This document shows, piece after piece, positions 1 through 33,214 of a stretch of DNA of 33,214 nucleotides. Every line of letters starts with the position of its first letter. The first letter of the stretch is position 1. The stretch lies in IMG/VR virus record IMGVR_UViG_2537561930_000012; one strand, 5' to 3'. The notes under the pieces were generated by a model that saw only the letters and a list, made by a program, of their open reading frames with translations, had not been told where the DNA came from and searched no databases. Made by a program: the position numbers and the translations under genes. This DNA is from a virus (lineage: Duplodnaviria > Heunggongvirae > Uroviricota > Caudoviricetes).

Positions 1-1047
1 GTGCGGGTATTACTTCGACCTGTTCTGGTACCGGAACTCGGGCTGGTGATCGTTAAGCCGGGCCGTGAATCCATGCCGGTATTCCACAATACCCGGGTAC
101 TGGTGGAGCCGGAACCGAAAAGCATGCGTAATCTGTCGTCCGGGGTCGTTCCTGCCGTTCGCCAGCCGCTGGCGGAGGATAAATCATTACTGCCATTTTT
201 CAGCGACGAACGAGTGATTCGTGCTGCTGGTGGCGCTGGCGCATTGTCTGACTGGTTACTGCGCCATGTTAAATCCTGCCAGTGGCCACACGGCGATTAT
301 CACCACAGTGAAACCGTCATTCACCGTTATGGTACCGGCGCAATGGTGTTGTGCTGGCACTGCGACAACCAGCTGCGCGACCAGACCTCCGAATCACTCG
401 GGCAACTTGCTCACCAAAACCTGTCTGCATGGATGATTGACGTCATACTCCATGCAATGATTGGCTCGCAGGAACGGGAATTATCGCTGGCTGAATTATC
501 CTGGTGGGCGGTCCGCAATCAGGTGGCGGACGCGCTACCGGAAGCGGTATTACGTCGTTCGCTGGGGTTGCGTGCGGAAAAAATCCGCTCAATGTACCGT
601 GAAAGCGACATCGTACCGGGAGAGCAGACCGCCACCAGCATACTGAAGCAGCGCACAAAAAATCTTGCGCCGCTGCCTCACGCCCACCAGCAAAACCCGC
701 CACAGGAAGAGACGGTGGTCAGCATTGCCGTTGATCCTGAGTCTCCGGAATCTTTCATGAAACGACCTAAACGTCGCCGCTGGGTTAACGAGAAATACAC
801 ACGCTGGGTGAAGACACAGCCGTGTGCGTGTTGTGGTAAGCCAGCCGACGATCCCCATCACCTGATTGGTCATGGTCAGGGCGGAATGGGGACAAAATCT
901 CACGATATTTTCACGCTACCGCTGTGTCGGGAGCATCACAACGAGCTTCATGCGGATCCTCTGGCGTTCGAAGAAAAGCATGGTTCTCAGGTTGATTTAA
1001 TTTTTCGTTTTCTTGATCACGCCTTTGCAACTGGCGTGCTTGGGTAA
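1..1047 (+). CDS. DUF968-family prophage protein (YdfU-like) with C-terminal HNH/zinc-finger-like motif; starts with GTG at window position 1, may be complete or 5'-truncated
   Basis: 348-aa ORF; C-terminus has CACCGKPADDPHHLIGHG...CREHHNELH, a Cys/His HNH-like motif; sits where nin-region genes lie upstream of rusA and Q. Confidence 0.7.
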   Translation: MRVLLRPVLVPELGLVIVKPGRESMPVFHNTRVLVEPEPKSMRNLSSGVVPAVRQPLAEDKSLLPFFSDERVIRAAGGAGALSDWLLRHVKSCQWPHGDYHHSETVIHRYGTGAMVLCWHCDNQLRDQTSESLGQLAHQNLSAWMIDVILHAMIGSQERELSLAELSWWAVRNQVADALPEAVLRRSLGLRAEKIRSMYRESDIVPGEQTATSILKQRTKNLAPLPHAHQQNPPQEETVVSIAVDPESPESFMKRPKRRRWVNEKYTRWVKTQPCACCGKPADDPHHLIGHGQGGMGTKSHDIFTLPLCREHHNELHADPLAFEEKHGSQVDLIFRFLDHAFATGVLG

Positions 1048-1059
1048 AGAAGGTGACTG

Positions 1060-1434
1060 ATGCTCATAGATTTGGTTTTACCTTACCCGCCGACGGTGAA
1101 CACTTACTGGCGACGCCGTGGCAGCACATATTTTATCTCGGAGGAGGGAAAGCGTTATCGCCGGGCTGTGGCGCTTATTGTTCGCCAGCAGCGGCTGAAA
1201 TTAAGCCTGTCCGGAAGGCTGGCGATAAAGGTGATTGCAGAGCCACCGGATAAGCGTCGTCGCGACCTGGACAATATCCTGAAAGCACCGCTGGATGCGC
1301 TGACGCATGCGGGAGTGTTAATGGACGATGAGCAGTTTGATGAAATCAATATCGTTCGTGGTCAGCCAGTATCTGGTGGACGTATGGGGGTGAAGATTTA
1401 CCCCATAATGCATGAAGAGCAGGTCAAAAAATGA
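1060..1434 (+). CDS. rusA: Holliday junction resolvase RusA (crossover junction endodeoxyribonuclease)
   Basis: 124-aa ORF with RusA hallmarks (PPTVNTYWRRRG..., DKRRRDLDNILKAPLDALTHAGV...DDEQ); stop overlaps Q start (ATGA). Confidence 0.85.
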   Translation: MLIDLVLPYPPTVNTYWRRRGSTYFISEEGKRYRRAVALIVRQQRLKLSLSGRLAIKVIAEPPDKRRRDLDNILKAPLDALTHAGVLMDDEQFDEINIVRGQPVSGGRMGVKIYPIMHEEQVKK

Positions 1435-2252
1435 AACTGGAAGATTTACCGAAATACTACTCCCCAAAATCCCCTGGCCTGACCGATGCATCGGCCTCAA
1501 CGTCAAAAGATGCGCTGAGTATCACTGATGTGATGGCCGCGCAGGGCATGACACAGAATCGGGCTGAGATGGGGTTTTCTGCGTTCCTGGGGAAAATGGG
1601 CATCAGTATGAATGACAGGGCGCGGGCAACAGAATTACTGGCAGATTATGCACTCAGTCGGTGCGATCGTGTGGCGGCGTTGAGAAAACTTCCGGCAGAA
1701 ATAAAACCGTTAGTGATGCGCATTATGGCTTCGTACGCTTTTGAGGATTATGCCCGCAGCGCAGCGAGTAAAAAGCAGTGCCCTTGTTGCTATGGGGAAA
1801 AATTTATTGAAAGCGTAGTTTTTACAAACAAGGTCCAGTATCCGGATGGTAAGCCGCCGGTATGGGCAAAGTGTACGAAAGGTGTGTATCCGTCTTACTG
1901 GGAAGAATGGAAAAAAGTCAGGGAGGTGGTAAAAGTTGCCTGTCCGGAGTGTGGCGGAAAGGGTGAGGTTTCCACCGCCTGTAAGGATTGCCGTGGGCGT
2001 GGTGTCGCCATTCATCGTGAAGAGTCGGTAAAACGTGGTATGCCTGTTATCAGAGACTGCCAGCGTTGTGGTGGTCGTGGCTATGAAAGACTACCATCAA
2101 CGGAGGCATTTAATGCTATATGCGAGGTGACAAACCAGATAACACGCGCGTCATGGGAAAAAACAGTTAAGAAATTCTATGATGCGCTGGTGACCCGGTT
2201 TGATATTGAAGAAGCATGGGCTGAGCGGCAGTTAAAAAAGGTAACTAGGTAA
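1431..2252 (+). CDS. Late-gene antitermination protein Q (phage 21/82-type)
   Basis: 273-aa ORF with several CxxC zinc-binding motifs (CPCC, CPEC, CKDC, CQRC); immediately upstream of a promoter/terminator pair and the lysis cassette. Confidence 0.7.
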   Translation: MKLEDLPKYYSPKSPGLTDASASTSKDALSITDVMAAQGMTQNRAEMGFSAFLGKMGISMNDRARATELLADYALSRCDRVAALRKLPAEIKPLVMRIMASYAFEDYARSAASKKQCPCCYGEKFIESVVFTNKVQYPDGKPPVWAKCTKGVYPSYWEEWKKVREVVKVACPECGGKGEVSTACKDCRGRGVAIHREESVKRGMPVIRDCQRCGGRGYERLPSTEAFNAICEVTNQITRASWEKTVKKFYDALVTRFDIEEAWAERQLKKVTR

Positions 2253-2257
2253 CAAGG

Positions 2258-2285
2258 TTGATTTTTCCGGAATCTGTGGTAAATT
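2258..2285 (+). promoter_or_regulatory. Candidate late promoter pR' (sigma70; -35 TTGATT, 16-bp spacer, extended -10 TGgTAAATT)
   Basis: TTGATT at 2258-2263 and TAAATT at 2280-2285 preceded by TG; located just after the Q stop as in lambdoid phages. Confidence 0.45.
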
Positions 2286-2332
2286 CGTCATAACGATGGG
2301 CGTTTTATGCCTGACGTTAGAAGAGTTTCTAC

Positions 2333-2358
2333 AACCCGCCGCCGAGCGGGTTTTTTAT
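2333..2358 (+). terminator. Intrinsic terminator (tR'-like) downstream of pR'
   Basis: GC stem cccgc/gcggg (2335-2339 / 2346-2350), extendable to 7 bp, followed by TTTTTTATT. Confidence 0.5.
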
Positions 2359-2395
2359 TGCGGAATTAATTATGGACCGTTATTATTCTGCTCCC

Positions 2396-2471
2396 GGCCC
2401 TTTAGCTCAGTGGTGAGAGCGAGCGACTCATAATCGACAGGTCGCTGGGTCAAATCCAGCAAGGGCCACCA
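2396..2471 (+). tRNA. tRNA-Ile(CAU)-like (ileX/ileZ-type), with non-canonical features
   Basis: 76 nt; 7-bp acceptor stem GGCCCTT/AAGGGCC plus ACCA; anticodon loop CTCATAA; two anticodon-stem mismatches and a T-loop GTCAAAT (G at position 54). Confidence 0.6.
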
Positions 2472-2472
2472 A

Positions 2473-2549
2473 CCGTCACCAGTTCATCAGGAAAGAGCGT
2501 CAACCCTTTAAGTTGAGTGTGCGAGGTTCGAGTCCCCGGTGGCGGTCCA
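2473..2549 (+). tRNA. Divergent tRNA-like gene, anticodon loop CCUUUAA (UUU, Lys-type) with unusual C33; possibly a pseudo-tRNA
   Basis: 77 nt; acceptor CCGTCAC/GTGGCGG (one G-U) plus T-CCA; D-stem GTTC/GAGC; perfect 5-bp anticodon stem TCAAC/GTTGA; T-loop TTCGAGT. Confidence 0.35.
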
Positions 2550-2551
2550 GT

Positions 2552-2627
<76 letters not shown>

Positions 2628-2630
2628 TAT

Positions 2631-2705
<75 letters not shown>

Positions 2706-2912
2706 GTTAGAGTCTTTCAGTCTGCGATGATGGGAAATCCCGGAGTGACTGAAAGACGTTTAAGTTATGAATGATCGCTTTTTTTTGCAAAATTGCTGTG
2801 CAGAAATACTAACCTTCGGGCAGGCGATCATTCATAAGCACTCTGCTTTTATTCCGATTAACTGTGGGTGGTTTGTTGGATAGAGTGCTTTCCTTACTGT
2901 ATATATTGTTTC

Positions 2913-2938
2913 GCCCGCTTTTGCGGGCTTTTCTTTTC
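2913..2938 (+). terminator. Intrinsic terminator-like hairpin upstream of the holin gene
   Basis: gcccgc-tttt-gcgggc hairpin followed by TTTTCTTTTC. Confidence 0.45.
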
Positions 2939-2997
2939 AAATCCCTTTCATTTCTCAGTGTAAAACTACGCCATCCGTTATTTGCGGAGGTGAGGCT

Positions 2998-3213
2998 ATG
3001 AAATCCATGGACAAAATTTCAACGGGCATTGCCTATGGCACCTCCGCAGGCAGTGCTGGCTACTGGTTTTTACAGTGGCTTGATCAGGTCAGTCCGTCAC
3101 AGTGGGCTGCGATTGGTGTACTGGGGAGTCTGGTTCTGGGCTTCCTGACTTATCTGACAAATCTGTACTTCAAAATCAGAGAAGACAAGCGTAAGGCTGC
3201 ACGGGGAGAGTAA
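2998..3213 (+). CDS. Class II holin, phage 21 S21-type pinholin, with dual-start motif (Met1/Met4)
   Basis: 71-aa [56 protein letters not shown]...; two TM segments; strong SD GGAGGTGAGG upstream. Confidence 0.85.
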
Positions 3214-3217
3214 TTCA

Positions 3218-3568
3218 ATGACTCAAAACTATGAACTGATTGTGAAAGGGATCCGCAATTTTGAGAATAAAGTTACGGTAACTTTAGCGTTACGGGACAA
3301 AAAACGCTTTGACGGTGAAATTTTTGACCTGGACATCTCGCTGGACCGTGTTGAAGGTGCCGCGCTGGAGTTTTATGAGGCAGCAGCCAGAATGAGCATC
3401 AGACAGGTCTTCCTGGATGTTGCTGCCGGGTTATGTGAAGGGGATGAGCAGTCGCCGGAAAAGCGCCCCGTAATTTTAGAGGCGCAGAATGTATGGATAA
3501 CCTACAAAGGAAAGCTACCGGGAAGAATTACTGGTTCTCTGAAGACTCCTCCGGAATCACAACCTTAA
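3218..3568 (+). CDS. DUF1327-family protein (YdfR-like) between holin and endolysin
   Basis: 116-aa ORF in the same position as ydfR in E. coli cryptic lambdoid prophages. Confidence 0.65.
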   Translation: MTQNYELIVKGIRNFENKVTVTLALRDKKRFDGEIFDLDISLDRVEGAALEFYEAAARMSIRQVFLDVAAGLCEGDEQSPEKRPVILEAQNVWITYKGKLPGRITGSLKTPPESQP

Positions 3569-21150: not shown

Positions 21151-24548
<3,398 letters not shown>

Positions 24549-25214: not shown

Positions 25215-25240
25215 TTAGCCAGGTAACACAGTGTTATGAC

Positions 25241-25268
25241 AGCCCGCCGGTTCAGGCGGGCTTTTTTG
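25241..25268 (+). terminator. Intrinsic terminator after lom
   Basis: 8-bp stem agcccgcc / ggcgggct with 6-nt loop followed by T6. Confidence 0.5.
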
Positions 25269-25278
25269 TGGGGTGAAT

Positions 25279-28200
25279 ATGGCAGTAAAGATTTCAGGTG
25301 TACTGAAAGACGGCACAGGAAAACCGGTACAGAACTGCACAATCCAGCTGAAAGCAAAACGTAACAGCACCACGGTGGTGGTGAACACGCTGGCCTCAGA
25401 AAATCCGGATGAAGCCGGGCGTTACAGCATGGACGTTGAGTACGGTCAGTACAGCGTTATTCTGTTGGTGGAAGGCTTCCCGCCGTCACATGCCGGGACC
25501 ATTACCGTGTATGAAGATTCCCGACCCGGTACGCTGAATGATTTTCTCGGTGCCATGACTGAGGATGATGCCCGTCCGGAGGCACTGCGCCGTTTTGAGC
25601 TGATGGTGGAAGAGGTGGCGCGTAACGCGTCCGTGGTGGCACAGAACACGGCAGCCGCGAAGAAGTCAGCCAGTGATGCCAGCACATCAGCCCGTGAGGC
25701 GGCAACCCATGCGACTGATGCTGCAGGCTCAGCACGCGCAGCCAGCACGTCAGCCGGACAGGCCGCGTCGTCGGCTCAGTCAGCGACTTCCAGCGCAGGA
25801 ACGGCATCAACAAAGGCCACTGAAGCATCAAAAAGTGCTGCCGCTGCAGAGTCCTCAAAAAGCGCGGCAGCTACCAGTGCCAGTGCCGCGAAAACGTCAG
25901 AAACGAATGCGGCAGCGTCACAAAAATCTGCAGCCACTTCTGCATCCGCCGCGACCACAAAGGCGTCAGAAGCTGCCACCTCAGCCCGGGATGCGGCGGC
26001 CTCAAAAGAGGCAGCGAAATCATCAGAAACGAACGCATCATCAAGCGCCAGTAGTGCCGCTTCCTCGGCAACGGCGGCAGGAAATTCCGCGAAGGCGGCA
26101 AAGACGTCCGAGACGAACGCCAGGTCTTCTGAAACGGCAGCGGGACAGAGTGCCTCAGCTGCGGCAGGCTCAAAAACAGCGGCTGCGTCGTCTGCCAGTG
26201 CCGCGTCAACAAGTGCCGGGCAGGCCTCAGCCAGTGCCACCGCCGCCGGAAAATCGGCAGAAAGTGCTGCATCGTCCGCTTCAACAGCCACAACGAAGGC
26301 TGGCGAAGCCGCTGTACAGGCCAGTGCAGCAGCGAGGGCTGCTTCCGCAGCGAAGACATCCGAAACGAACGCGAAAGCGTCGGAAACCAGCGCAGAATCC
26401 TCAAAAACGGCTGCCGCATCGTCCGCCAGTTCGGCGGCGTCATCGGCATCATCTGCGTCTGCTTCAAAAGATGAGGCGACCAGACAGGCGTCAGCAGCGA
26501 GGGGCAGCGCCACGACGGCATCCACGAAGGCGACAGAGGCTGCTGGCAGTGCGGCAGCGGCAGCACAGAGCAAAAGTACGGCAGAATCCGCAGCAACGCG
26601 CGCTGAGACAGCGGCAAAACGTGCAGAGGATATTGCATCCGCCGTGGCGCTTGAGGATGCAAGTACGACGAAAAAGGGGATAGTACAGCTCAGCAGTGCG
26701 ACCAACAGTACGTCTGAAACGCTGGCGGCAACGCCAAAGGCAGTAAAATCAGCCTATGACAATGCAGAGAAACGTCTGCAGAAAGACCAGAACGGCGCTG
26801 ATATACCCGATAAGGGACGCTTCCTGAACAACATTAACGCGGTCAGTAAAACAGACTTTGCTGATAAGCGTGGTATGCGTTATGTGCGGGTTAACGCTCC
26901 TGCAGGTGCAACATCTGGAAAATATTACCCTGTTGTTGTTATGCGTTCTGCTGGCTCAGTAAGCGAACTGGCATCAAGGGTCATTATCACCACGGCAACG
27001 CGAACCGCAGGCGATCCGATGAATAACTGCGAGTTTAACGGATTTGTTATGCCTGGTGGCTGGACTGACAGGGGGCGTTATGCTTATGGCATGTTCTGGC
27101 AATATCAAAACAATGAACGAGCCATTCACTCAATAATGATGAGTAATAAGGGCGATGATTTGCGCTCTGTGTTCTATGTTGATGGCGCTGCTTTCCCTGT
27201 TTTTGCGTTTATCGAAGATGGCCTGTCAATATCCGCACCTGGTGCTGATCTCGTTGTTAATGATACGACCTATAAGTTTGGGGCAACAAATCCGGCGACT
27301 GAATGTATCGCGGCGGACGTTATCCTTGATTTTAAGAGTGGGCGTGGTTTTTATGAGTCTCATTCGTTAATCGTTAACGATAACTTGTCGTGCAAAAAAC
27401 TTTTTGCCACAGACGAAATTGTAGCGCGTGGTGGTAATCAGATTCGAATGATAGGTGGGGAGTATGGTGCATTATGGCGTAATGATGGCGCTAAAACTTA
27501 CCTGCTGCTTACCAATCAAGGTGATGTTTATGGTGGCTGGAATACATTAAGACCGTTTGCTATTGATAACGCAACCGGCGAACTGATTATTGGAACCAAA
27601 CTGTCCGCAAGTCTGAACGGTAATGCATTAACAGCAACAAAGCTGCAAACGCCAAGACTGGTTTCTGGTGTTGAGTTTGATGGTTCCAAAGATATTACTT
27701 TAACCGCTGCGCATGTGGCTGCTTTTGCCAGAAGGGCAACTGATACATATGCCGATGCGGATGGTGGCGTTCCCTGGAATGCCGAATCAGGCGCTTACAA
27801 TGTCACCCGCTCTGGCGACAGCTATATTCTGGTTAACTTCTATACCGGAGTCGGAAGTTGCCGGACCCTGCAGATGAAGGCGCATTACAGAAATGGAGGT
27901 CTGTTCTACCGTTCCTCAAGAGATGGCTATGGTTTTGAGGAAGACTGGGCAGAAGTTTATACCTCGAAAAATCTTCCACCAGAAAGCTACCCAGTCGGTG
28001 CACCAATCCCGTGGCCATCAGATACCGTTCCGTCTGGCTATGCCCTGATGCAGGGGCAGACTTTTGACAAATCTGCATACCCGAAACTTGCAGCGGCTTA
28101 TCCGTCAGGCGTTATTCCTGATATGCGTGGCTGGACGATTAAGGGCAAGCCCGCCAGTGGTCGTGCCGTATTGTCTCAGGAACAGGACGGCATTAAATCG

Positions 28201-28677
28201 CACACCCACAGCGCCAGCGCATCCAGTACGGATTTGGGGACGAAAACCACATCGTCGTTTGATTACGGCACTAAATCCACGAATAACACCGGGGCTCATA
28301 CGCATAGTCTGAGCGGCTCTACAAGCTCGGCTGGAGCACACTCGCACGTTGATGGGCGCAGGTTTAATACAAGCACTTTTAAAGACACCTATCAGTATGG
28401 TTCTACAGCTGTCGGAAGTAACTCATACCAGGTACAAGGGGCGGTTGGTCTGGGCGTTGGTACGATGGCGAATACGAACTCTGCTGGCGCGCACACCCAC
28501 TCACTGTCCGGCACTGCTGCAAGCGCAGGCGCACACGCACATACTGTCGGTATTGGTGCACACACGCACTCCGTTGCGATTGGTTCACATGGACACACCA
28601 TCACCGTTAACGCTGCTGGTAACGCGGAAAACACCGTCAAAAACATTGCATTTAACTATATTGTGAGGCTTGCATAA
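25279..28677 (+). CDS. stf: Side tail fibre protein Stf (mosaic; expanded Ala/Ser/Thr-rich repeat region and His-rich C-terminal fibre repeats)
   Basis: About 1132 aa from ATG 25279; lambda Stf-like N-terminus ([26 protein letters not shown]...); repeated SETNA motifs; C-terminal GAHTHS-type repeats; ends ...[11 protein letters not shown]. Confidence 0.85.
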
Positions 28678-29258
28678 TGGCATTCAGAATGAGTGAACAA
28701 GCACGGACCATAAAAATTTATAATCTGCTGGCCGGAACTAATGAATTTATTGGTGAAGGTGATGCATATATTCCGCCTCATACAGGTCTGCCAGCAAACA
28801 GTACCGACATTGCACCGCCAGATATTCCAGCTGGCTTCGTGGCTGTTTTCAACAGTGATGAGTTATCGTGGCATCTCGTTGAAGATCATCGGGGTAAAAC
28901 GGTTTATGACGTGGCTTCCGGCGACGCGTTATTTATTTCTGAACTCGGCTCATTACCGGAAAATGTCACCTGGTTATCCCCGGAAGGGGAGTTTCAGAAG
29001 TGGAACGGCACAGCCTGGGTGAAAGATGCAGAAGCAGAAAAACTATTCCGGATCCGGGAGGCGGAAGAAACAAAAAACAGCCTGATGCAGGCAGCGAATG
29101 AGCATATTGCGCCACTTCAGGATGCTGTAGATCTGGAAATCGCAATGGAGGAAGAAAACTCGTTGCTGGAAGCCTGGAAAAAGTATCGGGTGTTGCTGAA
29201 CCGTGTTAATACAACAACTGCACCGGATATTGAATGGCCAGTAGCACCTATAGGGTAA
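28677..29258 (+). CDS. tfa: Tail fibre assembly protein Tfa
   Basis: 193-aa ORF overlapping stf stop (TAATG); conserved C-terminus ...[31 protein letters not shown]. Confidence 0.85.
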
Positions 29259-29845
29259 ATTCGTAATGATTACCTAAATACGTTATTCTTTTGTTCAAAA
29301 AGTGATTTTGCTATAGGTAGAGAGTATGTTCTTGGATTAAGAATAAAAAATCGCCATGAAAGAGCTTCATGGCGAGTACATAAACGTACAAAATATGATG
29401 AAAGTAGAGCGGCGTAAGCCACTATATTAAGATATGACAATAGCGAAGAAAAGTGAATAACATTTTATGGGCGTTTAATTGTTAATTATAAAAACTAGAG
29501 TGCCCGATATTGTTTATCTTGCTTTAAAATAATGTACTCAAACCAAATTTTTGAGCTAAAAGCTCAAATAATATAAATGCAATGATAATGTTTAATAAGA
29601 CAATTAGCTTGCTTTGTATTTTCATTTCGGAATACTGTTAAGTAACTTTGATGACCCTAACAATAGATCGGAATTTTCTTAGAGTCAATGGTCACTGTAT
29701 TTGCTTGCAAAGCAAATGTTTTGGTGGTTATAAGTTTTCCTAATATAGTCACCTATGCAACTTGTTCCGTGTGGAGATTAAAGGTTAAAATTTAATGCGA
29801 AGATGGAATTATATTATATTTTTTATAATTAATTTAACCTTAACA

Positions 29846-29944
29846 TCGTTGCTGGCGGCATGGAAGAAATATCGGGTCTTGCTGATGTCGTGTTGGCACT
29901 TCCTTAGTGCCGGATATCAAATGGCCAGCTGTACCTGTGGGGTG
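29846..29944 (+). repeat. Decayed second copy of the tfa 3' end (frameshifted remnant)
   Basis: About 75% nucleotide identity to 29160-29258; encodes ...[12 protein letters not shown] then, after a frame change, PDIKWPAVPVG*. Confidence 0.55.
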
Positions 29945-30604
29945 AAAACTTTATATGGATGCTATTTTTATAATAGCTGGTAAAAACTGGCCGAACTGAA
30001 ATTCACTGTTGATAAAAAAGATGTGTTTGAGTGTATGTCATTGTTTTCTTAATGGAATCCACTAGAATGCAGCGAATTTAAGAAGGTGGGTTTTTATTGG
30101 AATATAAACTACAATAATGCTCAACTCGTTCGTAGAATTGTTTTTTCTTATTTCTTGGAATGCTAACCATTATATGCATTATGGGGGCGATGCTTCCTGA
30201 TAATTTACATGATGCATACATTGAAGCAATAAATTCAATATCATTGTCATCAAAGTTAAAGCTTTCTCCGTCCATTTCAATTCCTTATGTGTTTGGCACA
30301 ACTGATGCTGTATCCCATGAGAATTTATGCAAGTTGTTATGTTTGATTTGATATTGCAATGATAATTGTAGCTAATTGTTTTCAATTGAGTGAAAGTTTA
30401 TTTCGAGTGATTAAGTCGAAAAAAAAGATTTCTCACGGTTAGTAAGCATATTAGGTCAGTATTCAGATATGAATGGTATTAATGACTAAATTTTCAATCA
30501 TATATGGATTTTTATGCTGATGAAGATGTTTTATTTGGCGATTCGTCAAGCATCTTCACTTAAGTAATCGTATATTTTAAGAGTGCAAAAGAGAAAGGGA
30601 CAAC

Positions 30605-30703
30605 GTTGCTCGCACTCTGGATTAAATATAGGGTATTGTTAAACTTCGTTGATACATAATTGTACCGGATATTGAGTGGTCTGAAGTCCCAGTCATTAAG
30701 TAA
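30605..30703 (+). repeat. Decayed third copy of the tfa 3' end (more diverged remnant)
   Basis: Alignable to 29170-29258 (...ctggattaaatatagggtattgttaaac...taccggatattgagtgg...taa); encodes LWIKYRVLLNFVDT* and, in another frame, PDIEWSEVPVIK*. Confidence 0.45.
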
Positions 30704-31051
30704 TTGTTTCGTGATATGCTGCAGAAACGTTGTATGCAATAACGTTCTGCGGTTGGCTGGTGAAATTTCGATAGTGCGGGTATTGAATGATTTCCAGCCG
30801 TTACCGATTTTATATAACTGCAGTGGAATTATTCAACACACAGGCAAAACTGAATAAGCTGAGAAAAAAGCGTGCTTTCCCAATCTGGGGCAAATCACTT
30901 CTGAATGACACCTGAAAACAGGTGGTGGACTCAAGAAGGCTTGGAATATTCTTCTTTAATGTTATGTAATTCATTGATTTTTCGTGTACGATTTTAAGAC
31001 ATTTATTCCAAGAAAAATTTTTAACTCTTTGATTTTTCGACTCTGTATCAT

Positions 31052-31113
31052 CGGTCTCGAAAACCGGAGTAGGGGCAACTCTACCGGGGGTTCAAATCCC
31101 CCTCTCTCCGCCA
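31052..31113 (+). other. 3' fragment of tRNA-Ser (serU-type, anticodon arm through CCA end), likely prophage attachment-site (attR) scar
   Basis: 62 nt CGGTCTCGAAAACCGGAGTAGGGGCAACTCTACCGGGGGTTCAAATCCCCCTCTCTCCGCCA; upstream sequence does not continue into the tRNA 5' half. Confidence 0.6.
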
Positions 31114-31697
31114 CTTTATCAATGACTTATCTCCCGACTTCCCGCCTTGCTTTTCCTAAACAGAACAATCGTAGAATATTCTTGAAGGGTTAGATCGTCA
31201 CTGTTTTCTGTTCGATACTGTGACATTCAGCACTTGATTCGCTATGGATCTGACAGGAAGGTTTTGAGCGAAAATTTGCAGTTATTCAGTCGTTTTCTTA
31301 TCGGTCACCATTATTCTTTTAGACATTGATCCTACAAAGCTGCCGCAAAGTTGGTGGTGGGAACTGAAGTTGCGTAGAGAAGGGGTCAATACCCGGAGGC
31401 AAACATGGGCTGGCAAAAGTGTAGCGGTATTAGGCGCAGCTATTTAGCCTAGTTATGTTTTATGAAAACTTGATATCATATAAGTGTCTTACTTATTGGC
31501 TGTAAATAAGTTTTTCCTAAGGAATTGTTTCTTGAGTATCATTTGTAACTGTAACGGAATTTATAATCCTTTGCTTTATTGTTACGGTATTTTTTATCAC
31601 ACCCTATTTTTTATGTGGTTTTTTATACTGAAGTTTGGCAAAGTGAACTTTATATGCATATACTTCATCCTGGTTTCAGTTAAGTTGGGTGGATGAT

Positions 31698-32441
31698 ATG
31701 GCAACTACATGTTCAGTTATATTGATTTTGGAGTCCTTTGATGTTTATTTCGGAAAAGAGAGTGTGTTTCTAGAGAAAGGTTCATCTGTACTTGTCGACT
31801 CTAGCTCTAGAGATTTTTTCCTGACATATCCTGAAAGAGTGATAGTGGCGGATTTTGGCGCTGAGTTTATTAGTCGCTATTTGAAAGCTAATAACTTAAG
31901 GGATATTTCTGATTGTAGGGAATATCCATCTTATTTAAAAATAAACTTTGCTGACTTCAGTTTAATTAAAGGATTAATTAGTTGGGCTAATCACTGTGCT
32001 GAATACATAGAAATTTTTGATGAGTCTATTGCTTTTACATGTCTCTCTGCATTTTCTTCTGAAAAACAATTTGGAGTATTTCTGTTTGAATGTTTGAAAA
32101 GCACAGAGGCTAAAGTTAAAACGATTATTCATACGGATTTATCTGCACCATGGCGTCTTAAGGATATATCATCAAGATTATATCTCAGCGAAAGTTTACT
32201 AAAGAGGAAATTGAAAGAAGAGGGGGTATCATTCAGTAAGATCATACTTGATGAGAGGATGCAAATGGCTGAATATTTACTCAGCACTCGTTGTTATCCT
32301 ATTAGTAAAGTAGCTAAGGTCTGTGGTTATGCCAGTGTCTCATACTTTACTTATGTATTTAGACGTTATTTTGGTGTTTCTCCAAGTCAATACTCTCAGA
32401 GGAGTTCAGAAAGTAAAATTCTTACTCACCAGGGAATCTGA
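31698..32441 (+). CDS. AraC/XylS-family transcriptional regulator (AppY/YdeO/GadX-like)
   Basis: About 247 aa (ATG 31698; track ORF from GTG 31689); C-terminal dual-HTH AraC signature (WRLKDISSRLYLSESLLKRKLKEEGVSFSKIILDERMQMA...CGYASVSYFTYVFRRYFGVSPSQY); AT-rich gene. Confidence 0.75.
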   Translation: MATTCSVILILESFDVYFGKESVFLEKGSSVLVDSSSRDFFLTYPERVIVADFGAEFISRYLKANNLRDISDCREYPSYLKINFADFSLIKGLISWANHCAEYIEIFDESIAFTCLSAFSSEKQFGVFLFECLKSTEAKVKTIIHTDLSAPWRLKDISSRLYLSESLLKRKLKEEGVSFSKIILDERMQMAEYLLSTRCYPISKVAKVCGYASVSYFTYVFRRYFGVSPSQYSQRSSESKILTHQGI

Positions 32442-32482: not shown

Positions 32483-32848
32483 TTAAGTTAACGTTACCCG
32501 CTGACGTCGATATTCTCGCGGAGAGCGATAACCCAACGCACTGTGCGGATGGTTTTCATTGTAATGATCGATCGCCACTGCAAGATTATGCAATGCCGTT
32601 CTTACATTCGGTTTCGGCATGAACGCGATGTAGTCTTCCTTCATCGTTTTCACGAACCTTTCTGCCATTCCATTACTCTGAGGACTGCTGATTGCCGTTG
32701 TGCAGGGCTCCAGATTCAACTCTCTGGCGAACTGCCATGTTTCATGCGCTCTATACGCTGAACCGTTATCTGTCAGCCACTGGATGGACTGTTCCGGTAC
32801 TTTATCGCCAAAGCGTTTTTCTATCGCTCCTAACATGACATCCTGCAC
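32483..32848 (-). mobile_element. Truncated IS3-family (IS2-like) transposase OrfB, C-terminal half of the DDE/rve catalytic domain
   Basis: 121-aa minus-strand ORF with DNGSAYRA...[11 protein letters not shown]...[14 protein letters not shown]; the N-terminal half and orfA of this copy are missing. Confidence 0.7.
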
Positions 32849-32992
32849 TGTCGCTTTATCGTAACCTCCCGTGCTTGCGGCCCAGTCTATGGCTTCACGA
32901 TCGCAACAGTCCAGGGCGAACGTAACACGCAGTTTTGAATCGCCACGGGTTTAACAGACACCTCAGAGTCATTTAAGATGGCTTAAAGAGAG

Positions 32993-33214
32993 GTGCCCAT
33001 GAGCGGTAAGCGTTATCCCGAAGAGTTTAAAACTGAAGCAGTCAAACAGGTTGTTGATCGCGGTTATTCTGTTGCCAGCGTTGCAACACGTCTCGATATC
33101 ACCACCCACAGCCTTTATGCCTGGATAAAGAAGTACGGTCCGGATTACTCCACTTTTTCATCAAGCCAATCCGCCCACCACTGCATCATTTCTCTGCGCT
33201 TATCGAGATACTGA
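32993..33214 (+). CDS. IS3-family transposase OrfA (HTH), opposite orientation to the adjacent OrfB fragment; C-terminal region looks aberrant
   Basis: 73-aa ORF MPMSGKRYPEEFKTEAVKQVVDRGYSVASVATRLDITTHSLYAWIKKYGPD... then non-conserved tail before stop at 33212-33214. Confidence 0.65.
   Translation: MPMSGKRYPEEFKTEAVKQVVDRGYSVASVATRLDITTHSLYAWIKKYGPDYSTFSSSQSAHHCIISLRLSRY

What the first reader, a model, noticed from the sequence alone, without database searches (positions are those of the whole stretch)
25279..28677. Mosaic side tail fibre with an expanded Ala/Ser/Thr repeat tract and a lower-GC inserted central domain
Stf is about 1132 aa. It has a lambda-like N-terminus, a roughly 350-aa low-complexity Ala/Ser/Thr region with recurring SETNA motifs, a central region of visibly lower GC (about 26850-27950) unlike the lambda fibre, and a lambda-like His-rich C-terminus. 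That points to domain shuffling affecting receptor specificity. The repeat tract also creates long spurious ORFs in other frames.
Basis: partly seen in the sequence, partly recalled or inferred. Interest (0 to 1): 0.45.

Follow-up and report, generated by a model that had tools for sequence, protein, structure and literature searches.

The report
Ordinary Rac-type (StfR) side tail fibre
This gene is an intact copy of the well-known StfR-type side tail fibre of lambda-like prophages of E. coli; it really is a patchwork compared with phage lambda, but the same patchwork is already catalogued in thousands of genomes, so it is ordinary.

Summary
An ORF at 25279-28677 encodes 1132 aa. It has a lambda-like N-terminus, a 336-aa Ala/Ser/Thr tract with four SETNA motifs, a lower-GC centre and a His-rich lambda/T4-like C-terminus. 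The tract also creates long stop-free alternative frames.

The gene is not new. The exact protein is RefSeq WP_024168614.1, in a 90%-identity cluster of 15,543 members. It is collinear and about 97% DNA-identical with E. coli K-12 Rac StfR and with phages Kati and 2H10, except for one roughly 44-aa tip cassette. About 1,231 of 5,426 complete E. coli genomes carry a near-full-length copy.

The tract is 48 unbroken heptads (S-A-S/T-x-A-x-T/S), matching the proximal trimeric coiled coil modelled in Ur-lambda Stf. Forty-eight heptads is the usual length in the sampled relatives; lambda is 15 heptads shorter.

The centre (aa ~490-905) replaces lambda's shorter distal shaft. It is built from a conserved beta-sandwich knob, a T4 gp34-like piece and Mu S-like pieces.

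Host specificity most likely lies in a hypervariable loop (aa ~1024-1067) of the T4 gp37-type tip, not in the centre. That loop occurs in about 9 classes that assort independently of the centre.

Verdict: already known, low interest.

The parts
25240..25268 (+). Intrinsic terminator-like hairpin (GCCCGCC-loop-GGCGGGC followed by a T-run) after lom, just upstream of stf
   Evidence: Read directly from the sequence
25279..28677 (+). stf CDS, 1132 aa, a StfR-type side tail fibre
   Evidence: ORF. Exact match to WP_024168614.1. About 97% DNA identity to K-12 stfR over aa 1-1023 and 1068-1132.
25279..25680 (+). N-terminal tail-attachment domain (aa 1-134; the solved part is aa 1-94)
   Evidence: Pfam PF08400, E 1.6e-71. 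PDB 9e7m/9mgh 'Tail fiber protein', E 2e-51. In Ur-lambda, Stf residues 1-91 form the collar on the tail (PMC12617516).
25666..26673 (+). Ala/Ser/Thr tract (aa 130-465): 48 uninterrupted heptads S-A-(S/T)-x-A-x-(T/S), inferred to be the proximal trimeric alpha-helical coiled coil (about 50 nm)
   Evidence: Periodicity z = 7-10 at all multiples of 7, with Ala at the a and d positions. The lambda equivalent is modelled as a coiled coil, residues 102-393. No Pfam match.
26188..26502 (+). 105-aa block (aa 304-408, 15 heptads) that is present here and absent from lambda Stf
   Evidence: Pairwise alignment and blastn breakpoints
26674..26838 (+). Conserved linker or neck (aa 466-520): Phage_fiber_2 repeat, Mu S-like. 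It serves as the left recombination flank.
   Evidence: Pfam PF03406, E 3e-20. Mu S 5yvq/8ju3 residues 105-172. Shared with lambda and PhiR26_1 up to aa ~489-494.
26746..27993 (+). Central module (aa ~490-905) with low GC3, which replaces lambda Stf aa ~385-533
   Evidence: Identity breakpoints against lambda and PhiR26_1. GC3 0.34-0.44. Full length found in only about 20 phage records.
26878..27372 (+). Conserved all-beta knob domain (aa ~534-698) with no close solved homologue
27394..27609 (+). T4 gp34 / Mu S-like trimerisation segment (aa 706-777)
   Evidence: PDB 4uxe/5nxf E ~1e-11 and 5yvq residues 268-336. Pfam Gp34_trimer, E 3e-27.
27715..27999 (+). Mu S/S'-like distal shaft domain (aa 813-907)
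   Evidence: PDB 8ju3 residues 322-415. Pfam gp37_C, E 8e-6.
27982..28674 (+). T4 gp37-type receptor-binding tip (aa 902-1132): collar, needle with seven HxH motifs, and a distal loop
   Evidence: PDB 2xgf, E 1e-87, aligned end to end. Pfam Collar and Phage_fiber.
28348..28479 (+). Hypervariable tip cassette (aa ~1024-1067), inferred to be the receptor-contact loop
   Evidence: The only block that is not alignable with K-12 stfR. About 9 unrelated classes sit between invariant GAHTHS flanks. Aligns with the loop between HxH motifs 3 and 4 of gp37, with a 12-aa insertion.
28677..29258 (+). tfa, the tail fibre assembly chaperone, which overlaps the stf stop by 1 nt (TAATG)
   Evidence: Pfam Caudo_TAP, E 1.7e-42. 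Junction sequence. Same Tfa class across tip classes.

Best explanation
This is an intact allele of the StfR-type (Rac-family) side tail fibre of a lambda-like prophage. I infer that it works like Ur-lambda Stf.

Three chains form one fibre. The N-terminal domain (aa 1 to about 91) docks on the tail tip. About 48 alanine-core heptads form a proximal alpha-helical coiled coil about 50 nm long, which is about 15 nm longer than lambda's.

A conserved Mu S-like neck leads into a distal shaft made of a beta-sandwich knob, a gp34-like segment and Mu S-like segments (aa ~490-905). The fibre ends in a T4 gp37-type collar, needle and distal loop with seven HxH metal-binding motifs. Its variable distal loop (aa ~1024-1067) contacts the receptor. 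The receptor is probably an outer-membrane porin such as OmpC, or LPS, and this first contact speeds reversible adsorption. The downstream Tfa, translationally coupled to stf, chaperones folding of the tip.

The patchwork seen relative to lambda arises by homologous recombination in the conserved flanks: the N-anchor, tract and neck on the left, and the collar and needle on the right. Recombination swaps the distal shaft and the tip loop as separate cassettes.

Shown here: gene identity, module boundaries, heptad periodicity, homologies, population shuffling and the compositional dip.

Inferred: trimer and coiled-coil structure, receptor and chaperone role.
For: - Identity: the exact protein is in RefSeq, in a cluster of 15,543 members. 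It is collinear at about 97% DNA identity with K-12 stfR except for the tip cassette. Full-span matches of 94-97% occur in phages Kati, PhiR34_1, mEp332, ev099 and 2H10. Near-full-length copies occur in 1,231 of 5,426 E. coli genomes.
- Gene order is J, lom, stf, tfa.
- Coiled coil: 48 heptads with Ala at the a and d positions. Clean indels come as whole heptads: -105 aa in lambda, +105 aa and -28 aa in relatives. In-tract DNA repeats are spaced at multiples of 21 nt. [quoted passage not shown]
- Tip: 2xgf aligns at E 1e-87 with all seven HxH motifs conserved. Lambda Stf and T4 gp37 bind OmpC.
- Cassette behaviour: the same N-anchor and tract are joined to at least 5 different centres and about 9 tip classes. 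L054 and L055 have a different centre but the same tip as the window.
- The natural boundaries (lambda aa ~385-393 and ~528-533) coincide with the fusion points R393 and S528 used for functional engineered Stf chimeras.
- Lambda x Rac stf recombination has been demonstrated experimentally.
- The centre's GC3 of 0.34-0.44, against 0.53-0.67 in neighbouring tail genes, fits a foreign origin.
Against: - No experiment addresses this particular allele, and its receptor is unknown.
- Only monomer structure prediction was possible. The 311-aa model was poor (pLDDT 51), so the trimeric shaft architecture is inferred from homology.
- The tail-tip gene J upstream carries a 1-nt deletion. The fibre may therefore never be mounted on a working virion in this host, unless the deletion is a sequencing error.
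- The locus sample was taken from the best matches to the window's N-terminus, so it is biased towards close relatives.
Confidence: 0.9

Rival explanations
1. One reading: the lower-GC central module is the element that sets receptor specificity, for example as a second, glycan-binding receptor site on the shaft.
For: - The centre is swapped as a cassette among prophages.
- It contains a well-folded beta-sandwich knob. Its weak structural neighbours are accessory domains of phage tailspikes and lectin-like or GH16-like sandwiches.
- Some lambda-like fibres use O-antigen as a receptor (Gifsy-1 abstract).
Against: - The centre is 98-100% conserved among alleles that carry unrelated tips.
- The knob has invariant motifs across homologues that are only 28-40% identical (PMNNCxF..GGWSD). 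That pattern fits a structural core better than a diversifying binding surface.
- In lambda and T4 the receptor contact is at the tip.
Confidence: 0.15
2. The gene is a silent relic in a defective prophage. It is intact by recency or by gene conversion, and it matters only as a reservoir that incoming lambdoid phages can recombine with.
For: - J is frameshifted by a 1-nt deletion at about 22070.
- IS3 fragments and tfa 3'-end fossils lie downstream.
- K-12 Rac is such a defective reservoir, and lambda recombines with its stfR.
Against: - The 1132-codon ORF, its SD-like motif and the tfa coupling are all intact.
- The head and tail genes upstream appear as long ORFs.
- A single-base deletion could be a sequencing error.
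- This reading does not contradict the functional description of the protein.
Confidence: 0.3
3. The Ala/Ser/Thr tract is a disordered low-complexity linker, or a slippage-prone contingency repeat whose copy number tunes the fibre.
For: - The composition is extreme.
- A few length variants exist: +105, -28, -3 and +4 aa.
Against: - There is no DNA-level tandem array. TRF finds only a 9-nt, 2-copy hit, and in-tract DNA repeats are only 62-88% identical.
- The length is constant in 61 of 67 relatives.
- The heptad register holds strictly over 336 aa.
- The homologous lambda segment is modelled as a coiled coil, supported by cryo-EM and cryo-ET.
Confidence: 0.04

Closest known systems
E. coli K-12 Rac prophage StfR (b1372, NP_415890.2, 1120 aa), and the Stf proteins of phages Kati (PP925833) and 2H10 (LR595862)
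   Same: The architecture is collinear: N-anchor, 48-heptad tract, neck, the same central module and a gp37-type tip. DNA identity to K-12 stfR is 97% over aa 1-1023 and 96% over aa 1068-1132. Kati Stf has the same length, 1132 aa. tfa follows with the same 1-nt overlap.
   Different: The tip cassette (aa ~1024-1067) is of a different class from K-12's (48% identity over the aa 1001-1080 segment, which includes conserved flanks; 12 aa longer) and about 70% identical to Kati's. Rac and Kati carry a Pin-type invertase downstream of tfa, and this window does not.
Ur-lambda side tail fibre Stf (774 aa; structure paper PMC12617516, PDB 9e7m/9mgh for the N-domain)
   Same: The N-anchor is 91% identical, the heptad coiled coil and neck are shared, the collar is 92% identical and the C-terminal end is 80% identical. 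The locus J-lom-stf-tfa is the same, and a closely related prophage (99.1% identical over the downstream 4.5 kb) sits at the lambda attachment site next to bio.
   Different: Lambda has 33 heptads rather than 48. Its distal shaft (aa ~385-533) is unrelated to the window's 415-aa centre. Its tip loop is of a different class, at about 50% identity.
T4 long tail fibre distal subunit gp37, receptor-binding tip (PDB 2XGF)
   Same: aa 902-1132 align end to end (E 1e-87). The collar, seven HxH motifs and the C-terminal [11 protein letters not shown] are conserved. A separate chaperone gene follows.
   Different: Only the last roughly 230 aa are shared. The distal loop differs and is 12 aa longer here. 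The chaperone is Tfa (Caudo_TAP). This is a siphovirus side fibre, not a myovirus long fibre.
Phage Mu tail fibre S/S' (PDB 5YVQ, 8JU3) and T4 gp34 C-terminal region (4UXE, 5NXF)
   Same: The neck (aa 440-521), the trimerisation segment (aa 706-777) and the distal domain (aa 813-907) share 40-60% local identity with Mu S or gp34 segments.
   Different: These are short shared modules within otherwise different proteins. No invertible S/S' arrangement is present here.

Membership tests
Lambdoid side tail fibre (Stf; PF08400-anchored) | N-terminal tail-attachment domain (phage_tail_N / StfN) | tested here: met
   Pfam E 1.6e-71 over aa 1-134. PDB 9e7m E 2e-51 over aa 1-94.
Lambdoid side tail fibre (Stf; PF08400-anchored) | Gene position: downstream of J and lom, followed by a coupled tfa chaperone gene | tested here: met
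   J-like, Lom (E 3e-119) and Tfa (E 1.7e-42) flank the gene. TAATG overlap.
Lambdoid side tail fibre (Stf; PF08400-anchored) | Proximal trimeric coiled-coil shaft | tested here: inconclusive
   Sequence periodicity of 48 heptads with Ala at the a and d positions, and homology to the lambda segment modelled as a coiled coil.
Lambdoid side tail fibre (Stf; PF08400-anchored) | Assembly as four trimers on the tail tip, accelerating reversible adsorption | not testable with these tools
   Needs virions and adsorption assays. J is frameshifted in this window.
StfR (Rac-type) allele group | Collinear high identity with K-12 stfR, including the central module | tested here: met
   97.2% DNA identity over nt 1-3069 and 96.5% over nt 3202-3399, with no gaps.
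StfR (Rac-type) allele group | Same tip cassette as K-12 StfR | tested here: not met
   aa ~1024-1067 are not alignable at DNA level, and the segment aa 1001-1080 is 48% identical. The tip is a different class (class 0 against class 5). The window's class is nevertheless present in 263 of 5,426 E. coli genomes.
T4 gp37-type receptor-binding tip | Collar domain followed by a needle with HxH metal-binding motifs | tested here: met
   Pfam Collar E 1.1e-11. Seven HxH motifs, all aligned with 2XGF.
T4 gp37-type receptor-binding tip | Variable distal loop inserted between needle strands | tested here: met
   The loop between HxH motifs 3 and 4 aligns with the corresponding gp37 loop, with a 12-aa insertion. 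It is hypervariable among alleles. That this gp37 loop is the distal 'head' is from my memory of Bartual 2010.
T4 gp37-type receptor-binding tip | Iron binding, and OmpC or LPS binding | not testable with these tools
   Inferred only from homology.
Invertible tail-fibre segment (Mu G / P1 C / e14 P type) | Adjacent Gin/Cin/Pin invertase gene | tested here: not met
   No invertase ORF downstream. Rac and Kati have one.
Invertible tail-fibre segment (Mu G / P1 C / e14 P type) | Crossover sites and inverted alternative C-terminal cassettes | tested here: not met
   No AAACCNNGGTTT-like site in or near stf. This is a minimal core motif taken from memory, so the test is weak. Only direct-orientation tfa fossils are present.
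Tandem-repeat contingency locus | Near-identical head-to-tail DNA repeats prone to slippage | tested here: not met
   TRF finds only a 9-nt, 2.1-copy hit. Dispersed repeats are 62-88% identical.

The most novel reading that the evidence does not exclude
The conserved beta-sandwich knob of about 165 aa in the distal shaft (aa ~534-698) has no close solved homologue. It is present in K-12 Rac StfR and in about 130 representative clusters of long fibre-like proteins. It could be a second, carbohydrate-binding receptor site.
Probability: 0.12. Interest if true: 0.4.

Novelty: already known. Interest (0 to 1): 0.1.

Why it matters
It matters little as a discovery. The gene, its architecture and the mosaic evolution of tail fibres are all established. 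StfR is annotated in E. coli K-12, a full-length Ur-lambda Stf model (cryo-EM/cryo-ET plus AlphaFold3) has been published, and Stf chimeras are already engineered at the same module boundaries.

The practical value is a clean module map of a very common Stf type:
- anchor;
- a 48-heptad coiled coil whose larger indels come in whole heptads;
- a swappable distal shaft;
- a roughly 44-aa hypervariable tip cassette with about 9 classes.

This map could guide host-range engineering. It also flags the shaft knob domain as a structurally uncharacterised piece of a protein from a model organism.

Tried and rejected
- Tandem Repeats Finder on the gene found only a trivial 9-nt hit, so the tract is a protein-level repeat and not a DNA-level one.
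- A monomer AF2 model of aa 500-810 had mean pLDDT 51. Its Foldseek search gave nothing significant, although gp34 and Mu S ranked first, so I did not use it.
- A profile-vs-PDB search with the centre alignment only re-found Mu S and gp34 in the flanks. Nothing matched the knob.
- I tested whether Tfa co-varies with tip class, as an adhesin would. It does not: one Tfa class serves nearly all tip classes.
- I looked for invertase crossover sites and inverted alternative cassettes and found none. The crossover motif I searched was a minimal core recalled from memory.
- My first heptad-run detector was too strict and broke runs at single substitutions. I replaced it with anchor-to-anchor distances.
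- Considered and rejected: the alternative-frame ORFs over the tract as real genes. They are Arg/Gln/Pro-rich or Ala/Val/Asp-rich, as expected from frame-shifted GCN-rich codons.
Full report
1. THE OBSERVATION

The ORF is real. ATG 25279 to TAA 28675-28677 encodes 1132 aa. It is preceded by a lom terminator hairpin and a GGGGTG Shine-Dalgarno-like motif. Its stop codon overlaps the start of a Caudo_TAP tail fibre assembly gene by one base, as TAATG. Upstream lie a J-like gene and an Ail/Lom gene.

Every descriptive element of the finding checks out:
- Residues 1-303 are about 90% identical to Ur-lambda Stf.
- Residues 130-465 are 70-80% Ala+Ser+Thr, with SETNA at aa 207, 249, 277 and 361.
- nt 26850-27950 has GC 0.469, against 0.61 in the tract and 0.515 for the window.
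- The C-terminus has seven HxH motifs.
- ORFs of 336, 309 and 263 aa lie over the tract in other frames. Three of the five non-coding frames have 0-1 stops in 335 codons there, and the products are Arg/Gln/Pro-rich or Ala/Val/Asp-rich, so they are composition artefacts.

The GC dip is more than contrast with the Ala-rich tract. GC3 is 0.34-0.44 in the centre, against 0.53-0.67 in the other tail genes. The tract's high GC comes entirely from codon position 2 (GC2 0.81, GC3 0.50).

2. WHAT IT IS

The exact 1132-aa protein is RefSeq WP_024168614.1 (E. coli). It belongs to a 90%-identity cluster of 15,543 sequences.

A megablast of the gene against 5,426 complete E. coli genomes finds a copy covering at least 80% of the gene in 1,231 of them. 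These copies are often annotated stfR, and the best is 97.8% identical. Sequenced lambdoid phages match across the full span at 94-97% protein identity: Kati, PhiR34_1, mEp332, ev099 and 2H10.

Against E. coli K-12 Rac StfR (b1372) the gene is collinear. It has 97.2% DNA identity over nt 1-3069 and 96.5% over nt 3202-3399. Only aa ~1024-1067 are unalignable.

So this is a StfR-type side tail fibre.

A closely related prophage (99.1% identical over the 4.5 kb downstream of stf) sits at the lambda attachment site next to ybhB-bioA in E. coli OkiPb01701.

3. MODULE MAP

(a) aa 1-134: the Stf N-terminal anchor (Pfam E 1.6e-71; PDB 9e7m E 2e-51).

(b) aa 130-465: the tract.
- It is an unbroken run of 48 heptads with consensus S-A-(S/T)-x-A-x-(T/S). 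Ala occupies two core positions in 35 and 46 of the 48-50 repeats counted. Residue identity at every lag that is a multiple of 7 has z = 7-10 against shuffles.
- It is a protein-level repeat, not a DNA-level one. TRF finds nothing meaningful. Dispersed DNA repeats are only 62-88% identical, although most are spaced at multiples of 21 nt, notably 252 nt.
- The Ur-lambda structure paper models lambda Stf residues 102-393, the homologous segment, as the proximal trimeric coiled coil (PMC12617516).
- Assuming a rise of 0.148 nm per residue (my assumption, not a tool result), 48 heptads give about 50 nm and lambda's 33 give about 34 nm.
- Lambda lacks exactly 105 aa, or 15 heptads, corresponding to aa 304-408.
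- Other clean variants also come in whole heptads: +105 aa and -28 aa. Rare singletons of -3, +4 and -4 aa exist; they are stutter-like sizes, or they may be errors.
- In 61 of 67 relatives measured the anchor-to-anchor distance is identical to the window's. The tract is therefore not expanded here, and lambda is the short outlier. One caveat applies: the sample consisted of the best matches to the window's N-terminus.

(c) aa 466-520: a conserved neck (Phage_fiber_2, E 3e-20; Mu S residues 105-172).

(d) aa ~490-905: the central module. It has no detectable similarity to lambda Stf aa ~385-533. It contains three parts:
- A T4 gp34 / Mu S-like segment at aa 706-777.
- A Mu S/S'-like domain at aa 813-907.
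Pieces of the module occur at 30-50% identity in T4-like gp34 and gp36, and in rV5-like, P2-like and Felix-O1-like fibres. The whole module occurs in only about 20 phage records.

(e) aa 902-1132: this region aligns end to end with the crystallised T4 gp37 receptor-binding tip (2XGF, E 1e-87), with all seven HxH motifs conserved.

4. WHERE THE SPECIFICITY PROBABLY LIES

The only part that differs between this allele and K-12 StfR or Kati is the stretch between HxH motifs 3 and 4. It aligns with the loop of gp37 that I recall as the distal 'head' (Bartual et al. 2010, from memory), and it is 12 aa longer here.

Across 81 full-length Stf ORFs taken from viral and genome loci, this cassette falls into about 9 mutually unrelated classes. 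The classes are flanked by invariant GAHTHS-type needle repeats.

The classes assort independently of the centre. L054 and L055 carry a different centre but the window's tip. L014, L020 and L048 carry the window's centre with another tip.

The window's tip class is present in 263 of 5,426 genomes, and 56 of them are at least 99% identical over this 240-nt stretch (the top-listed hits are 100%). Tfa stays in one class across tip classes, so it behaves as a general chaperone rather than a co-evolving adhesin.

By contrast the centre is 98-100% conserved among alleles with unrelated tips. Its knob carries invariant motifs across homologues that are only 28-40% identical, which is more typical of a structural core.

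For lambda and T4 the tip binds OmpC. I therefore place specificity in the tip cassette and regard the centre as a distal shaft or spacer. There remains a minority chance, about 0.12-0.15, that the knob is a second binding site.

5. HOW THE MOSAIC ARISES

The same N-anchor plus tract (98-100% identical) is joined to at least five different centres, giving proteins of 774-1176 aa.

DNA identity to lambda and to PhiR26_1 stops at aa ~489-494 and resumes at aa ~893-907. That corresponds to lambda aa ~385 and ~533. These positions lie within a few residues of R393 and S528, the fusion points used to build functional lambda Stf chimeras (PMC11338833).

Homologous recombination between lambda stf-tfa and Rac stfR-tfaR has been shown experimentally (PMC3945230).

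No invertase gene, crossover site or inverted alternative cassette is present here, whereas Rac and Kati do carry a Pin-type invertase. The crossover motif I searched was a minimal core recalled from memory, so that test is weak. Two degenerate tfa 3'-end fossils downstream look like scars of earlier cassette replacements.

6. CAVEATS

The tail-tip gene J carries a 1-nt deletion at about position 22070 relative to an intact 1132-aa J in the closest relative. The prophage may be defective, in which case stf would act mainly as a recombination reservoir. Alternatively the deletion is a sequencing error.

Only monomer predictions were possible, and the 311-aa model was poor. The receptor of this allele is unknown.

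7. VERDICT

The gene is mosaic relative to lambda. However, it is not expanded, not an insertion and probably not specificity-determining in the centre, and it is uniformly similar to the known StfR. Novelty: already known. Interest is low, at about 0.1.

Noticed in passing
window 21151-24548 (about 22070): The tail-tip gene J is split into two frames (ORFs 21151..22137 and 22044..24548). The cause is a single-base deletion relative to the intact 3399-nt J of E. coli OkiPb01701, which is 94.9% identical. The prophage may be tail-defective, or this may be a sequencing error.
   Followed up: partly
window 29846-29942 and 30585-30694 (+ strand): Two degenerate copies of the tfa 3' end ([13 protein letters not shown]...PDIKWPAVPVG and LLALWIKYRVLLNFVDT...PDIEWSEVPV) lie downstream of the intact tfa. 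They look like fossils of earlier fibre or chaperone cassette replacements.
   Followed up: partly
window 29300-32441: A very low-GC stretch (0.30-0.37) after tfa carries an AraC-family regulator ORF (31689..32441, GC3 0.27). It looks like a moron or cargo island at the prophage end. Among complete E. coli genomes, only 8 hold the whole downstream stretch at 80% coverage or more.
   Followed up: partly
window 32483-33214: IS3-family transposase or integrase-core fragments lie on both strands at the prophage edge. They are annotated as partial pseudogenes in the closest relative, where ybhB-bioA (the lambda attachment region) follows.
   Followed up: partly
window 25240-25268: A strong intrinsic-terminator-like hairpin (GCCCGCC / GGCGGGC followed by TTTTTT) lies between lom and stf. 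This suggests that stf-tfa expression depends on antitermination or read-through.
   Followed up: no
loci L087-L101 and others (for example L087, L088, L091): Assemblies of unrelated bacteria (Leeuwenhoekiella, Pseudomonas, Shewanella, Oceanobacillus, Desulfosporosinus, Kitasatospora and others) contain low-coverage contigs (about 1x where stated), several of about 48.5 kb. Nine of these loci carry the complete 401-aa frameshifted lambda PaPa stf ORF. This is almost certainly lambda control-DNA contamination.
   Followed up: partly
protein clusters (for example P0005, P0019, P0370, P0375): Many public records name StfR-type fibre proteins 'short-chain fatty acid transporter', 'phage tail tape measure protein', 'phage portal protein' or 'terminase'. 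These look like propagated misannotations; I suspect, without testing, that the low-complexity tract or fused ORFs triggered them.
   Followed up: no
lambda NC_001416 region under hit H32: The reference lambda annotation still lists 'orf206b' over the stf tract.
   Followed up: no
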